Below the pieces are notes generated by a model, which was not told where the DNA came from, ran no database searches, and saw nothing but the letters and a program-made list of their open reading frames with translations. Position numbers and translations under genes: made by a program. Positions 364 to 62,924 of a stretch of 64,000 nt of DNA are shown in pieces. The DNA comes from Eledone cirrhosa (Eukaryota), in the NCBI GenBank assembly GCA_964016885.1, contig OZ024750.1:26536001-26600000 (forward strand), written 5' to 3'. Each line of letters opens with the position of its first letter. Position 1 is the first letter of the stretch.

Positions 364-509
364 AATGCCCAGCAGGAAGGTATAGTGAGCTTTGTCGATT
401 GACATGCCATTGTTTCAAAAACAGTAAGTGTGACAAGCTAACTGGAAGGTGTCCAGCTGGATGTGCTGCAGGTTATATGGGTAACAGATGCAACACAGTT
501 ATTTCCTAA
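364..509 (+). CDS. EGF-like exon A, copy 1 (ECPAGRYSELCRLTCHC...CNTVIS*); donor lost, terminal or skipped exon
   Basis: tatcag acceptor, phase 1, 8-Cys MEGF-type repeat. The position equivalent to the donor (after 498) reads TTATTT, not GT, and the frame runs to TAA 507-509. Confidence 0.7.
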
Positions 510-744
510 TGATGCTAAGTATTTACAATATATATATATATATATATATATATATATATAGAGAGAGAGAGAGAGAGAGAGAGAGAGAGAGTAAGAAAAT
601 GCGAGGTAGTTTCAGATATATTATCCATTTATTGCACGTACAGTAGAACGGAATGTAAATTACAATATGAAAAGTAGTAATTAGGCAAACAATTAGTTAA
701 TATCTTCTTCTATCATATGAATCAAAACAAAACAAAAAGTTCTT

Positions 745-1015
745 CATCCTCAGTGTATACTGATTAATGTTCAGAGCGATCCTTAGCATTCTCGTGTAGC
801 GCACATCCACTATCTGAGTAAGTTTCTTGGTCAGTGTCCCAGTCTCAGACCCATACAGTTACACAGACTCCACTATAGCAACGAAGAGACGGATTTTCAG
901 GTCTTTACGAAGGTCCGACTCCCACACTGAGCTCAAACTGTGGCACGCCGCCCAGGCTTTGCTCTTCCACTCTACCACATCATCTTCTGTATTTCCAATT
1001 TGCTTCCAGACACAG
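745..1015 (-). mobile_element. RTE-type LINE 3' fragment
   Basis: Similar to 33795-34010 (VESVxLYGSETW region on the minus strand). Confidence 0.75.
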
Positions 1016-1899
1016 GAAGTCTTCAACCAAGTCTAGCCCCCCCCCCCCGCCCCCTACATTAGTAATCTTCTCTGGCTTCTCAATATTCTCTACCATATAC
1101 TTCATCTTAATCTCATTCATTCAAAGCCCTATACTCATCGAGAAAGTCTCCACGTCCTGCATCAAATCCTATGCCTCCTTCACTGTGTTTGTCATCGACA
1201 AATTAGTTATGTAGATTTCTAGCCAGTATAGAGAAGGTTAATGTGCTCAATGCATATAGGTTGTTAGACTAGCGAACCATGCGATTAAATGTAATGAGAG
1301 TTAGCTTAACAATCGTATAATAAGCAGAGTAAAAACCGTTTTTAAAATGCTGGAGAGAATAACAAAGATTTATGAATACATGTATATATATTTAATGGCT
1401 GACAAGTATGGCAGTGAAAAAAATTTTAAACAGCCATTTTGTGTGGCTGCTATAACGTCCTTTCACTTCCAACCTTTTAATATCAATATTCCACATTTAA
1501 AGAAGGTTTTTCACTTCGGTGATATAATTTGATTTATGAATTAATATGTTATGAAGCATTTTCTTTTGTAGGCTCTGATGATAATAGTAATTTTTAATGG
1601 AGTAATATCGATTTATATTCGATATCCCAACATGTATGTCGATCCTTACTGTGCAATATTTGAAAAAACTTGTCAGCCATTAAATATATACATATATTTA
1701 TAAATCTTTGTTATTCTCTCCAGCATTTTCAATACGATATATATATATATGTATATATATTTTTATATATATATATATAAATATATATATATATATATAT
1801 ATATTTATATATATATATATATATATATATTTATATATATATATATATGTGTGTGTGTGTGTGTGTGTGTGTGTGTGTGTGTGTGTGTGTGTGTGTGTG

Positions 1900-4110
1900 T
1901 ATCTAAAGTTACAGTATCGTGAGAGAGGATAGAGAGATGAGGTAAAAGAGAAACGATACAGAGGATTAATTGCCAAGATTTGTTCGATGCTTATATAAAC
2001 AGGGTTAAACATTAGAGGCGTTAATATTTAGTGTACGAAGTTAAGCAGAGCAATTATAATCGAAATAATTGATGAAAGAGAAGCAAGCCGTTAAAACACA
2101 TTTATAAAAATCTCTTACACATGTTTCGCCTAATGGGGCTTTTCTGAGGCGGATAAATAGGCTAATAAATTATTAATGAATCCAGTAAGGTTACGAGCAA
2201 AATTTTAACATCGAAATCCATTACTTCGTGTTACAAAATGGAGTCAAGATCTTTGTTACTAAGGGAAGTATTTCCGGTGCATGATAAAGTTATCTGTTTG
2301 ATCAATGACCGCTATTAAAAAATTATATTTCAGGTTTTAATTTAATTATGGTTTGTCAAGTCAATTTAATGAGACACTGTTAAGGTATGAGTCTTAGTAT
2401 CAATTATGAGTAAGGTAATTAAAGACTTTACACTAGTTTAGTTAGTACATAGCTGCAATATCAATGTAGGCTTAAGAGTCTAGAAATGTAAAGACATATA
2501 AGATGGATTCAGTATAATTATATGATCATATGTCTACAGTGTTTAAAGGGTATAATCAGCAGTTCTGTAATATTACCCAAAGTTTAGTCTATCAGTATGG
2601 AAGAATACAAAAAGGTAATCTAGTCTGAAAATATGCAGTGCAGCTCCCTGGAAGGACGACGGGGGTTGGATGATGGTATTGTTTAAAGATGTTTAATTTT
2701 ATGTCTATAATTTTAGGTCGAGCCAGGGCACAGTGATGGAGGCCCCGGGTGTTATGGTGTTTGAGTATTAGCCGGGATCCATCTATAGAAGGACTGTTGT
2801 AGTCTATGGCCGCAATTGATGACAGTTTCGGCTCGACTATTAATGAGGTGCTTGTAACACGAAGTAATGCATTTCGATGTTAAAATTTTGCTTGTACCTT
2901 TACAGGCTTCATTATTAATTTATTTGCCGGTGGATTGGCAGTATCGGTAGAGGATCGGACGCCATGCTTTCCAGCATAGTTACGTCCCTTTACGATCTGA
3001 GTTCAAATCCCGCCGAGGTTGACTTTGCCTTTCATCCTTACGGGGTCGATAAAATAAAGTACCAGTAATGCACTGGATAATTGCTGGCCTTGTGCCTAAA
3101 GTAGAAACAATTATTAATTTATTTGCCTATTTACCCGCCTCAGACAAGCCACATTGCGCGAAATATATTTAAGAGAATTTTATAAATGTGTTTTAACCGG
3201 TTGCTACTCTTTCATCAATTTTTTCGATTATATAAATATATATGTATATATATACATGTATATATACATAGATACATATATATATATATATATATATATG
3301 TATATATATATATATATATATATATATATATATATATATAATTGTATATGTATATATATATATATGTATATATATATATATATATATATATATATATATA
3401 TATATATATGTGTGTGTGTGTGTGTGTGTGTGTATGTGTGTGTGTGTCAAAATAATGACCAAACTAAACATACGGAAAATATAAATAAACTGAAACAATT
3501 GGATACAACTTTGTCAACGCTGATGAAAGCAATAACGTATACAACATGGATAAAGTAGAACCACCGAAATAATAAACAGGGAGTTTTGTAAGATATATAA
3601 AAAGAGACTTTAAAATGAAATCTGGATAGAGCAATGGAAGAGATGAATTAGATAGTAACCAGAGCCAATGTAGAAATTGAATTGAACACTATCAACCGAT
3701 AGAAACGCAGATAATAATGAAGGATCACAAACCGTATTACAACATTGACGTCACAGTCAGACATATTGTGTAATTCAGGTTGGTCATTGAAGTAATGAGC
3801 AAAATTCTATTTAGTGACTTCGTCAATGAAGACACTAAGGACGGCAAAAGATTGTTCGTACAGTTTCTATATTACCATCGGATCCAGTGACTCAGAGCAG
3901 GTGACCGATCACGTGAGCTATGTGAAGAAGTGTTTTCTGGGTCTCAGCGGAGGATTACATCACGATGATGCCCTATGTATCCCACTCAAACATAAAAGAC
4001 CGTTTAGAGCGGATGAAGAAGTAAATATCTTAAGTTTTCAAGAACATAAAACTAGAAGTCGCAATCTACAGTAAACATTGAAAATCTGATCTATCAATTC
4101 TTCGACATTC
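1900..4110. mobile_element. Old, decayed Penelope-like element with internal inversion (paralog about 53035-55030)
   Basis: RT remnant YITxGSSDSEQVTD...GGLxHDD in ORF 3814-4074. Inverted pLTR-like pieces near 2090-2185 and 3110-3200. Confidence 0.6.
2929..3109 (+). mobile_element. tRNA-derived SINE with 18-bp TSD
   Basis: B-box-like GAGTTCAAATCC. TSD attattaatttatttgcc at 2911-2928 and 3110-3127. Empty site in copy 2 (about 54036-54053). Confidence 0.9.
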
Positions 4111-4159
4111 ATCATATATATATATATATATATATATATATATATATATATATATATCT

Positions 4160-60800: not shown

Positions 60801-61201
60801 TTTTCAAAAATACACTGTGACTCATTGGCCTGATTTGCATATCAGCAGACTGGCTGATCAGTCAATCTGCATGTTAGCCAGATTTGCATATCAGCAGACT
60901 GGCCAGTCAGTTTCCTGTATACGAGAGATATATGGCCAACTTTGCCAAATTTAAATAAAAAAGACAATTTATATATACAAATATATACACAACAAAGCCT
61001 GCAGCTCCATTCTACTTCGCTGTCTCTTCTCCCTCTCTCTATGTCCCTCTTTCAATCTTCTCTCTTACCATCACTATCTCTTTCTCTCTATCTTTCACTC
61101 TCTCTTGTGTCGGTGGGTGTGTGCTGGGTGCAGGCGTGTGCCTGCATGTGTATGTGTGTGTAAATATGATGTTTAATATAGAAATCTTATATGTATTTCA
61201 G

Positions 61202-61336
61202 AATGCCGAATAGGAGAGTTTGGTGTTAAATGTAAAAGGACATGCCATTGTATCAACAACACAAACTGTGACCATCGAAATGGAAGATGTTCAGATGGAT
61301 GTTCTGCAGGTCATACTGGTAACAATTGCCAAGAAG
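61202..61336 (+). CDS. EGF-like exon C, copy 2
   Basis: 135 nt, canonical sites. Two substitutions versus copy 1 (E>K, D>N). Confidence 0.9.
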
Positions 61337-62472
61337 GTATATCATAAACTTGTTACGTATTCTACTACACACACACACACACACACACACACACACACAC
61401 ACACACACACACACACACACACACACACACACACACACACACACACACACACACACACACACACACACACACTCACTTCAATTTAGATTATCACTTGTAA
61501 ATTTTTTAATTTTTAATTTTTGAATCCTCATTTTTTATTTTTTATTTTTAGTTTTAATTTCCAACTCTCCTTCATAATTTCCACTGTGAAACCATAATAC
61601 CTAGAATTAAGCATATTTTCTCTTAGAGGTTGATGGTCAATTCTACTGTCCATGCTTAATGTAGGGTAGTATTGAGACCTATTGACACTCACACTCTCCC
61701 AACCCCACTAGCTTTCGGCTGACTGCCACTGACGGGGTGGATAGCAGTAAGCTATATATTACAGGCCTGAATAGGTCAATGTTTGGTTGAGAGGGGGAAC
61801 TGCCTAGGCGAATTTCGTTGAACTCTGAGGTAGCTGATGGTCAAATTCTTTCGGATCTGCGCCTGCGCAAACCGGTGGGGGTGAATTGGTACTCACAAGG
61901 GAACGGACGAAGAACCCAAGAGCACACACTTCGTCGGTTCCCATGTCGATATATATATATATGTACATAAAGGTAATCTGAGTTTTTTCGAATATTAATA
62001 ACATTCGATTCGCTTGCAATTATGCAAACAAACCTCAATTTTATAGCCATGTCAGTAGAATGAACACTTCATTCTTGCTTCTGTGTTGGCATGCGAACAG
62101 AACTGCAGACACTGATGTTTCTGGGTATCACCCTTCATCAGTACAGCCCACTGTTTTCCTGCAAAACCATCAGAGCCAGTGAAAAGATATGCTATTTTCA
62201 AAAATACACAGTGACTCATTGGCCTGATTTGCATATTAGCAGACTGGATGATATATACCAATATATTCACAACAAAGCCTGCAGCTCCATACTCCTTCGC
62301 TCTTCCCTCTCCCTCTCTCTATGTCCCTCTTTCAATCTACTCTCTTACAACTACAATCTTTTTCTCTCTATCTTTCACTCTCTCTTGTGTGTGTGGGTGC
62401 AAGTGTGTGCGTGCATGTGTGTGTGTGTATGTAAATATGATGTTTAATATAGAAATCTCATATATATTTCAG

Positions 62473-62604
62473 AATGCCGCATAGGAAAGTTTGGTGTTAA
62501 TTGTAATGTGACATGTCATTGTATCAACAACACAAACTGTGACATCTTTAATGGGACATGTTCAGATGGATGTTCTGCAGGTTATACTGGTGAGAATTGC
62601 CAAG
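62473..62604 (+). CDS. EGF-like exon D, copy 2
   Basis: 132 nt, canonical sites. One substitution versus copy 1 (D>E). Confidence 0.9.
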
Positions 62605-62789
62605 GTATATCATAAACTTGTTACATAGTTACGATAATTACTATATACACACAGGCATATATATATGTGTGTGTGTGGGTGTGTATGTGTGTGTGTTGGG
62701 GGGGGGGGCTAATGCGGGTGTGTATGTGCATGTGTTTGTGTATGTGTTTAAATAGGATGTTTAATATAGAAATCTCATATATATTTCAG

Positions 62790-62924
62790 AATGCCGAATA
62801 GGAAAGTTTGGTCTTAATTATAATAGGACATGCCATTGTATCAACAACAAATACTGTGATAAGCTAAATGGAACATGTTGAGATAAATGTTCTGCAGATT
62901 ATATTGGTAACAATTGCCCAGAAG
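62790..62924 (+). pseudogene. EGF pseudo-exon E, copy 2
   Basis: TGA 62879-62881, GG donor, additional Cys>Tyr change. Confidence 0.85.

What the first reader, a model, noticed from the sequence alone, without database searches (positions are those of the whole stretch)
364..62924. Tandem cluster of a compact EGF-repeat type-I membrane receptor hidden among microsatellites
Splice phases chain cleanly: signal exon (64 nt, phase 1), EGF B/C/D (135/135/132 nt, 1-1), TM exon (91 nt, 1-2), tail exon (232 nt to stop). That totals 789 nt, a composite 263-aa protein. Copy 1's signal exon lies upstream of the window and copy 2's TM and tail lie downstream, so the array may extend both ways. The repeats resemble MEGF10/SCARF/CED-1-type EGF units, but the protein is far shorter and has no NPxY or ITAM-like motif in the tail. 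A lineage-specific receptor family is inferred. The ORF track misses most of it.
Basis: partly seen in the sequence, partly recalled or inferred. Interest (0 to 1): 0.85.

Follow-up and report, generated by a model that had tools for sequence, protein, structure and literature searches.

The report
Phosphatase-less EGF receptor gene clusters
This is part of a large cluster of small cell-surface protein genes that look like cut-down copies of a receptor phosphatase gene, and whose membrane-spanning segment is changing unusually fast, as if in an arms race with something that grips it.

Summary
The exons are real and form a gene family. The window holds parts of genes 11 and 12 of a 20-gene array on C10 (signal and TM exons alternate 1:1); a second cluster lies on C2. 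At least 42 signal and 36 TM exon matches were found. Corrections: exon B lacks its GT donor, an intact EGF exon (14144-14278, 61202-61336) was missed, and exon E has a stop. The family is not MEGF10/CED-1-like. It derives from the octopod galactose-binding/MEGF receptor tyrosine phosphatase: same C-x3-C repeat type (51 of 51), homologous TM exon and homologous downstream intron, but no lectin or phosphatase exons. Genes carry 2-12 intact EGF exons. The TM exon is under strong diversifying selection (dN/dS 3-8; 77% identity against 86-99% in nearly all flanking-intron bins) yet stays uncharged and in frame. Tails are variable charged repeats without signalling motifs. Best reading: non-catalytic decoy or recognition receptors in a host-parasite conflict (about 50%). 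No RNA evidence was available, so splicing, expression and function are inferred.

The parts
364..498 (+). EGF-like exon B of copy 1; 8 Cys, open, but donor G|TT (probably skipped; in-frame internal GT sites at +60 and +117 exist)
10680..10814 (+). EGF-like exon C of copy 1, 135 nt, phase 1-1, intact
14144..14278 (+).
15461..15592 (+). EGF-like exon D of copy 1, 132 nt, phase 1-1, intact, three N-glycosylation sequons
15786..15920 (+). EGF-like exon E of copy 1; in-frame TGA and G|GG end: pseudo-exon in this copy
20821..20911 (+). TM exon of copy 1, 91 nt, phase 1-2; short stalk plus uncharged hydrophobic helix; hypervariable between paralogues; homologous to the RPTP TM exon
20912..21065 (+). 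Start of the intron after the TM exon, homologous to the same intron of the receptor phosphatase gene, ending in a shared 15-nt word (relic of a possible 6-nt micro-exon)
26659..26893 (+). Tail exon of copy 1 to the stop: basic juxtamembrane residues then a 12-bp repeat (26699-26846) read as Gly-Lys-Asp-Lys/Ser; 77 aa; no NPxY, ITAM or ITIM
26969..26974 (+). AATAAA poly(A) signal candidate, at the same distance from the stop in 4 of 10 distinct tails read
35457..35520 (+). Signal-peptide exon of copy 2 (ATG to donor, 64 nt, phase 1); nearly invariant across the family
47637..47771 (+). EGF-like exon B of copy 2; donor G|TT as in copy 1
57754..57888 (+). EGF-like exon C of copy 2, intact; 14 of 44 residues differ from copy 1
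61202..61336 (+).
62473..62604 (+). EGF-like exon D of copy 2, intact
62790..62924 (+). EGF-like exon E of copy 2; TGA, one Cys lost, G|GG end: pseudo-exon

Best explanation
The window holds parts of two genes of a birth-and-death family of non-catalytic type-I membrane proteins that arose from the EGF-plus-TM middle of a galactose-binding/MEGF receptor tyrosine phosphatase (RPTP) gene, joined to a signal exon of unknown origin and a new repeat tail. Shown: the exon order, copy number, RPTP ancestry of the EGF and TM exons, loss of lectin and phosphatase exons, purifying selection on cysteines and TM hydrophobicity, and diversifying selection on the TM exon and the non-cysteine EGF residues. 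Inferred: each gene makes a glycosylated rod of 2-12 disulfide-bonded EGF units on one helix with a tail that only anchors it; because it cannot signal by itself it works as a decoy or recognition variant of the parent RPTP in a conflict with parasites or pathogens, whose factors contact both the ectodomain and the membrane helix and keep driving them apart. Odds: family real about 0.9, RPTP origin about 0.9, immune-conflict role about 0.5.
For: 20 signal and 20 TM exons alternate on C10; 66 of 66 full EGF exons with a GT donor are intact against 5 of 12 without (Fisher p 3e-7; 11 fragments set aside); cysteine codon positions 1-2 vary at 0.006 against 0.166 elsewhere (61 exons); 19 of 19 TM exons read keep frame (88-97 nt), hydropathy 2.5-3.5 and no charge in the last 21 residues. 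RPTP origin; no lectin or phosphatase match in 596 kb of cluster DNA, with 1 and 3 hits in the RPTP control. TM dN/dS: 3.24 (1.8-6.6) by counting, 5.7-8.2 by codon models with 2dlnL 28-48 against 1, 93 non-synonymous against 11 synonymous changes in six non-overlapping pairs (p 2e-5); the two window copies differ at 15 of 91 TM bases where about 1.5 are expected from their flanks. EGF exons dN/dS 1.9, 2dlnL 24. Parent-type MEGF/GBD RPTPs sit in a snail locus associated with schistosome resistance, with EGF loss in the resistant haplotype (PMC11722531, passages); a TM helix under pathogen-driven positive selection has a precedent in tetherin (PMC2633611, abstract).
Against: No transcript or tissue data, so neither splicing nor an immune site of expression is shown. 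Positive selection does not name its cause; gametes or cell-identity pairing would give it too. The 12 exons without a GT donor also give dN/dS 1.99 (1.1-4.2), where dead exons should give about 1; this set mixes two exon types that diverged earlier, but it warns that EGF values near 2 are soft. TM trees and flank trees disagree (lnL -608 against -642), so gene conversion is likely and can inflate the model-based values. The C2 cluster has more signal (21) than TM (15) matches and some very long or shifting tails, so part of the family is probably dead. Many tails are frameshifted or truncated (13-180 aa in 10 C10 tails). The snail link is an association for the phosphatase-bearing parent, not for this family.
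Confidence: 0.5

Rival explanations
1. Membrane pairing code: the helices are the specificity elements. Each paralogue pairs in the membrane with itself, with the parent RPTP or with another receptor, tuning phosphatase dimers or marking cell identity (self/non-self, neuronal or skin-cell identity); selection drives helices apart to avoid cross-pairing.
For: The TM exon is the fastest part of the gene while staying hydrophobic; a mid-helix proline is kept in 12 of 13 aligned helices and one valine in 13 of 13; the two RPTP copies have identical TM regions (266 of 266 nt); TM residues control dimerisation and activity of human PTPRJ (bioRxiv 10.1101/672147, abstract).
Against: Variability is only weakly one-sided on the helix (moment at 100 degrees, p 0.07); no expression data; signal exon plus 5' flank is 87-100% identical across the family, which gives no sign of separate regulation, though promoters were not compared.
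Confidence: 0.2
2. Gamete-surface recognition or sexual-conflict proteins: a rapidly diversifying sperm, egg-coat or oviducal-gland surface family with a variable number of repeats.
For: dN/dS above 1 and variable repeat number are typical of molluscan reproductive proteins (recalled: abalone lysin/VERL, oyster bindin; not checked here).
Against: In those systems the extracellular part, not the membrane helix, carries the strongest signal (recalled); the parent family's only functional link found here is to parasite resistance.
Confidence: 0.15
3. Mostly non-functional repeats: a segmental-duplication array of a once-functional gene, now decaying, with exon differences produced by gene conversion or local hypermutation.
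For: Pseudo-exons and fragments are common (12 non-GT exons and 11 fragments among 89 segments); tails shift frame and truncate; no member of the family turned up among annotated proteins; some C10 neighbours are nearly identical.
Against: All 66 GT-donor exons intact, cysteine codons 27-fold less variable at positions 1-2, 19 of 19 TM exons in frame and uncharged, 30 of 30 signal exons with ATG and GT; relaxation alone cannot give dN/dS of 3.
Confidence: 0.08
4. A compact MEGF10/CED-1/draper or SCARF-type engulfment or scavenger receptor family.
For: Same broad fold class: the profile hits SCARF1 structure 8hna at E 1.9e-9 and MEGF/draper proteins among 68 hits.
Against: 0 of 51 exons have the C-x-C spacing, identity only 40-44%; no NPxY in 12 of 12 tails read; an EMI-type exon followed by EGF exons lies elsewhere, at C2:324.87-324.93 Mb; intron homology points to the RPTP.
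Confidence: 0.04

Closest known systems
Molluscan galactose-binding (F5/8 type C / fucolectin-like)-MEGF receptor tyrosine phosphatases (Octopus sinensis P0001, O. vulgaris P0013/P0015/P0034; Biomphalaria sudanica SudRes1 RPTPs)
   Same: Eight-cysteine repeat with C6-x3-C7 spacing, one repeat per phase 1-1 exon of about 135 nt, TM exon with the same phases and the same 10-nt acceptor and donor words, homologous downstream intron; clustered paralogues with variable EGF number.
   Different: No lectin domain, no phosphatase domains, no tyrosine-motif tail; a different signal exon (no RPTP match found); a new Gly-Lys-Asp repeat tail; TM helix hypervariable instead of identical between copies.
Biomphalaria glabrata PTC1/GRC and PTC2 polymorphic transmembrane clusters (PMC7494358, passages)
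   Same: Clusters of single-pass membrane genes with very high amino-acid diversity in a mollusc.
   Different: No sequence relation tested; the paper's main text has 0 occurrences of 'EGF' or 'phosphatase'; there the diversity is between alleles, here it was measured between paralogues; no resistance phenotype here.
MEGF10/MEGF11/PEAR1/CED-1/draper and SCARF1
   Same: Laminin-type EGF rod on a single TM helix.
   Different: C-x-C repeat spacing, EMI domain and NPxY (MEGF10 group) are absent; much shorter; a separate candidate orthologue exists in the genome.
Tetherin/BST-2 (PMC2633611, abstract)
   Same: Positive selection inside a membrane helix.
   Different: Unrelated sequence and topology; single gene compared between species, with a known viral antagonist; here 30-odd paralogues and no antagonist known.

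Membership tests
MEGF10/CED-1/draper engulfment receptors | EGF repeats with G-x-C-x-C-x2-G spacing | tested here: not met
   51 of 51 exons have C-x3-C; six MEGF10/draper/PEAR1-type proteins have 6-13 C-x-C repeats and 0 C-x3-C
MEGF10/CED-1/draper engulfment receptors | N-terminal EMI domain | tested here: not met
   The EMI part of a bivalve MEGF protein matched only C2:324,925,794 among 26 matches; cluster hits cover only its EGF part
MEGF10/CED-1/draper engulfment receptors | Cytoplasmic NPxY and YxxL/ITAM motifs | tested here: not met
   0 of 12 tails with NPxY or ITIM, 1 of 12 with a lone YxxI; 7 further tail loci were not parsed
SCARF1/SREC scavenger receptors | C-x-C EGF repeats and a long Ser/Pro-rich tail | tested here: not met
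   40% mean identity, different spacing; tails are Gly/Lys/Asp repeats; tail description of SCARF1 recalled
Galactose-binding/MEGF receptor tyrosine phosphatases | C-x3-C EGF repeats, one per phase 1-1 exon | tested here: met
   five RPTP EGF exons read in this genome share acceptor and donor context; 59-61% mean identity to Octopus RPTP repeats
Galactose-binding/MEGF receptor tyrosine phosphatases | Single TM exon, phase 1-2, after the last EGF exon | tested here: met
   RPTP TM exon is 94 nt with the same CTTTGAACAG acceptor and GTATGTGATT donor; downstream intron aligns above all 200 shuffles in 8 of 10 paralogues tested; genome-wide search returns two family loci at E 2.7e-9 and 4.8e-6 besides the two RPTP copies (4 of 4)
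Galactose-binding/MEGF receptor tyrosine phosphatases | Extracellular galactose-binding (F5/8 type C) domain | tested here: not met
   No match in 596 kb covering 14 genes; 1 match in the RPTP control
Galactose-binding/MEGF receptor tyrosine phosphatases | Cytoplasmic PTP domains | tested here: not met
   No match in 596 kb, 3 in the control; genome search lists PTP-domain matches only outside both clusters, with a stricter first look; tail exon ends in a stop and AATAAA
Polymorphic transmembrane clusters (PTC1/PTC2 type) | Cluster of single-pass membrane genes with extreme amino-acid diversity | tested here: met
   between paralogues only
Polymorphic transmembrane clusters (PTC1/PTC2 type) | Allelic hyperdiversity and association with parasite resistance | not testable with these tools
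   one assembly, no population or infection data
Any expressed type-I membrane protein family | Spliced transcript joining signal, EGF, TM and tail exons | tested here: inconclusive
   no RNA holder listed; the four runs laid gave no GT-AG joint at the exon ends among the rows shown

The most novel reading that the evidence does not exclude
An invertebrate paired-receptor system built from a receptor phosphatase: 30-40 phosphatase-less paralogues in which the membrane helix itself is the diversified specificity element, each helix pairing with or escaping the parent phosphatase or an intramembrane parasite factor, while exon shuffling sets the length and surface of the EGF rod.
Probability: 0.2. 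Interest if true: 0.85.

Novelty: new variant of a known kind. Interest (0 to 1): 0.64.

Why it matters
Cephalopod immune and recognition repertoires are poorly described, and this family is invisible to ORF-based annotation. It gives a traceable origin of a new receptor family (intron-level homology to a receptor phosphatase whose snail relatives map to a schistosome-resistance locus) and a rare case of strong positive selection concentrated in a membrane helix across dozens of paralogues. That makes two questions directly testable: whether molluscs use phosphatase-less decoys of MEGF-RPTPs against parasites, and whether TM helices can act as a diversified recognition code.

Tried and rejected
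RNA evidence: no RNA holder listed among 4 runs. Laying those 4 runs on a paralogous 10-kb stretch (L101: EGF, TM and tail exons of gene 9) at 80% likeness gave no exon-to-exon joint among the rows shown (394 joints not shown); X2-X4 (one sample) cover all 30 bins including introns and so behave like DNA, X1 covers 9 bins, mostly simple repeats. This says nothing about expression. Protein searches: single exon, no candidate; tail profile, 12 low-complexity hits, none a family member; the 150 best of 4403 profile hits and the 68 hits held no protein with the family's signal, TM or tail words. Pfam: all scores under the curated cut-offs. ESM Atlas: EGF_laminin/PEAR1-like clusters at 0.91-0.92, leads only. 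Origin of the signal exon: a search with the first 100 residues of the O. sinensis RPTP matched only residues 40-100, and 20 kb around two such matches held no family signal exon, so its origin is open. The alternative +2 reading frame of the window tail (84 aa, Thr/Glu/Lys-rich) was rejected: it is closed after 4 codons in the sister copy. One-sided helix variability not significant (p 0.07). Signal exon not under detectable positive selection (omega 1.25, 2dlnL 0.3). Assembly artefact rejected for the array as a whole: copies differ by 1-15% in introns and carry distinct TM exons, though the three near-identical neighbours at 26.09-26.22 Mb could include false duplicates. No structure or complex prediction was run: the whole protein exists only as a spliced model. 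Earlier-findings look-ups returned nothing. Ten literature searches listed no description of this family; the library lacks most subscription papers and no supplements were read, so gene-family tables in cephalopod genome papers may mention it.

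
Full report
1. What is in the window. The window is G000:C10:26,536,001-26,600,000 in a 3.0-Gb animal genome; the nearest annotated proteins are from Octopus, so an octopod is inferred. Bases 1-19,200 recur from 47,274 onward. Ten EGF-like exons lie on the plus strand, five per copy. C, X and D have AG and GT ends, phase 1-1, eight cysteines and no stop. B (364-498; 47637-47771) ends in G|TT; three B-type exons read in other paralogues end in G|GT, so B has lost its donor in this subgroup. 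E (15786-15920; 62790-62924) has a TGA and a G|GG end. The signal exon (35457-35520), TM exon (20821-20911) and tail exon (26659-26890, TAG, then AATAAA) are as described.

2. The family. Searches of the genome gave 42 distinct signal-exon matches (20 on C10, 21 on C2, 1 on C1149, each scoring 40 of 53-54 candidates) and 36 TM-exon matches (20, 15, 1, all candidates scored, a few partial). The EGF exon had 487 candidates, 40 scored. On C10, between 25.85 and 27.33 Mb, signal and TM exons alternate one to one, the single reversed pair being a minus-strand gene; the window holds the body of gene 11 and the front of gene 12. Fourteen genes were read from signal to TM (12 on C10, 2 on C2). They hold 89 EGF-like segments found by DNA similarity: 66 with a GT donor, all intact; 12 without, 7 of them damaged; 11 fragments set aside (Fisher p 3e-7; the first cysteine was part of the exon definition). 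Intact exons per gene range from 2 to 12. Cysteine codon positions 1-2 vary at 0.006 against 0.166 for other codons (61 exons). All 30 signal exons read have ATG and a GT donor. Nineteen of 20 TM loci fetched could be read; all 19 are 88, 91, 94 or 97 nt, hydrophobic and uncharged in the last 21 residues. These are the marks of working genes, but no transcript was available.

3. Where it comes from. A profile of 51 exons found Octopus lectin-EGF-phosphatase receptors first (P0001, E 1.9e-177). All 51 exons have the C6-x3-C7 spacing of these RPTPs and average 59-61% identity to four of them, against 40-44% and C-x-C spacing for MEGF10, draper, PEAR1 and SCARF1. This genome has two such RPTP genes at C2:257.5-257.6 and 261.7-261.9 Mb. 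In 90 kb of the second, the EGF exons share acceptor and donor context with the family and one aligns with exon B into the upstream intron (E 4.6e-10). Its TM exon is 94 nt, phase 1-2, flanked by the same CTTTGAACAG and GTATGTGATT words. The intron behind it aligns with the family's intron above the best of 200 shuffles in 8 of 10 paralogues tested, up to a shared 15-nt word; in the RPTP that word looks like a 6-nt micro-exon with a GTAAGC donor, which the family has changed (acceptor word kept in 17 of 19). Searched genome-wide, the RPTP TM region returns only the two RPTP copies and two family loci (4 of 4). No lectin or phosphatase sequence was found in 596 kb of cluster DNA, against 1 and 3 hits in the RPTP control. 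A likely MEGF10-type gene with an EMI-like exon lies elsewhere (C2:324.9 Mb). The family is therefore a phosphatase-less offshoot of the MEGF-RPTP, not a member of it and not a MEGF10 relative. The origins of the signal and tail exons are unknown.

4. How it evolves. Across the 13 TM exons of 91 nt (six of other lengths left out to avoid gaps) identity is 0.77, while 100-column bins over about 1 kb of intron on each side are 0.86-0.99, one bin next to a microsatellite being 0.75. dN/dS is 3.24 by counting (bootstrap 1.8-6.6) and 5.7-8.2 by codon models on either the exon tree or the flank tree (2dlnL 28-48 against 1). Six non-overlapping pairs give 93 non-synonymous changes in 385 sites and 11 synonymous in 137 (p 2e-5). 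The two window copies differ at 15 of 91 TM bases and 10 of 29 residues, while X, D and E differ at 1-2 bases. EGF exons give 1.5 by counting and 1.9 by model. The signal exon shows nothing significant. Against: exons without a GT donor also give about 2, and exon and flank trees disagree, so conversion may inflate the model values; the pair count does not depend on a tree. Tails are built from a 12-bp repeat, run from 13 to 180 aa in 10 C10 genes and to 241 and at least 712 aa in two C2 genes, shift frame often, and have no NPxY or ITIM in 12 of 12 read.

5. How it probably works. From established EGF-laminin disulfide patterns (recalled) each exon encodes four self-contained disulfides, so exons can be gained or lost in frame; the product is a glycosylated rod of variable length on one helix with a basic stop-transfer and a tail that is unlikely to signal. 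A non-signalling copy of a signalling receptor, multiplied in clusters and under diversifying selection, is best read as a decoy or recognition variant in a host-parasite conflict (about 0.5). The parent type has such a link: in Biomphalaria sudanica a resistance-associated region holds 10 MEGF genes among 23, three of them MEGF/GBD RPTPs, with EGF loss in the resistant genome (PMC11722531, passages). Clusters of hyperdiverse single-pass genes mark other snail resistance loci (PMC7494358, passages). Selection inside a helix has a precedent in tetherin (PMC2633611, abstract). The main rival is a membrane pairing code acting on the parent phosphatase, whose human relative PTPRJ is controlled by TM dimerisation (10.1101/672147, abstract) (0.2); then gamete recognition (0.15), decay (0.08) and MEGF10-like engulfment (0.04). 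PMC9334734 (passages) added nothing on this family.

6. Novelty. EGF-repeat expansions and MEGF-RPTP clusters are known in molluscs. A 30-40 member phosphatase-less offshoot with intron-level proof of origin and a positively selected TM exon was not found in ten literature searches or three protein searches plus one profile search; these miss most subscription papers and unread supplements. Verdict: real, a new variant of a known kind, interest 0.64; function and expression remain to be shown.

Noticed in passing
window 38187-41313 and 41685-44817: A 3.1-kb inverted repeat, 99.7% identical, in the first intron of copy 2, with a 205-bp direct duplication at its centre; a 2.4-kb part also lies at 16385-18734 (91%). 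Recent fold-back duplication or assembly artefact.
   Followed up: no
window 4114-6249, 6761-8867: 2.1-kb tandem duplication (94%) inside the intron after exon B of copy 1, single in copy 2.
   Followed up: no
window 15786-15920 and its paralogues on C10: The last EGF exon before the TM exon has lost its GT donor in 9 genes read; four of them lack the seventh cysteine, have a Ser/Thr-rich stretch there and an in-frame G|GTAACA at +117 that would also drop its partner, the eighth cysteine. It may be a real shortened stalk exon in those genes.
   Followed up: partly
window 364-498, 47637-47771: B-type exons carry an in-frame A|GTAAGT at +60, also in copies with a normal donor; a 60-nt version of the exon is possible.
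   Followed up: partly
L150 (C2:261,779,300) and window about 21052-21065: Possible 6-nt micro-exon 129 nt after the RPTP TM exon; the family keeps the acceptor word but not the GTAAG donor.
   Followed up: partly
window 22600-24640 (+), 28189-28839 (+), 49561-52613 (-); 4440-4680, 7087-7330, 33504-34037: Broken retroelement frames: Penelope-like reverse transcriptase/GIY-YIG pieces and LINE-type C-terminal pieces (labels recalled, not searched).
   Followed up: no
G000:C2:314,974,446-314,996,494: The tail-exon repeat with its acceptor is amplified many times over about 22 kb behind one C2 gene.
   Followed up: no
G000:C2:257.5-257.6 Mb and 261.7-261.9 Mb; C2:230-233 Mb; L158:3331-3480: The two RPTP copies are identical over the 266-nt TM region; further exons like the RPTP N-terminus lie at 230-233 Mb and at 315.42 Mb, 0.36 Mb beyond the C2 cluster.
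   Followed up: partly
G000 C16, C20, C23, C27: Arrays of apparently identical cysteine-rich exons gave weak matches (E 0.3-9); another repeated gene or element.
   Followed up: no
G000:C10:26,022,532; 26,066,449; 26,201,650: Three paralogues carry a 156-nt EGF exon with an in-frame 21-nt internal duplication, still with eight cysteines and a GT donor.
   Followed up: yes
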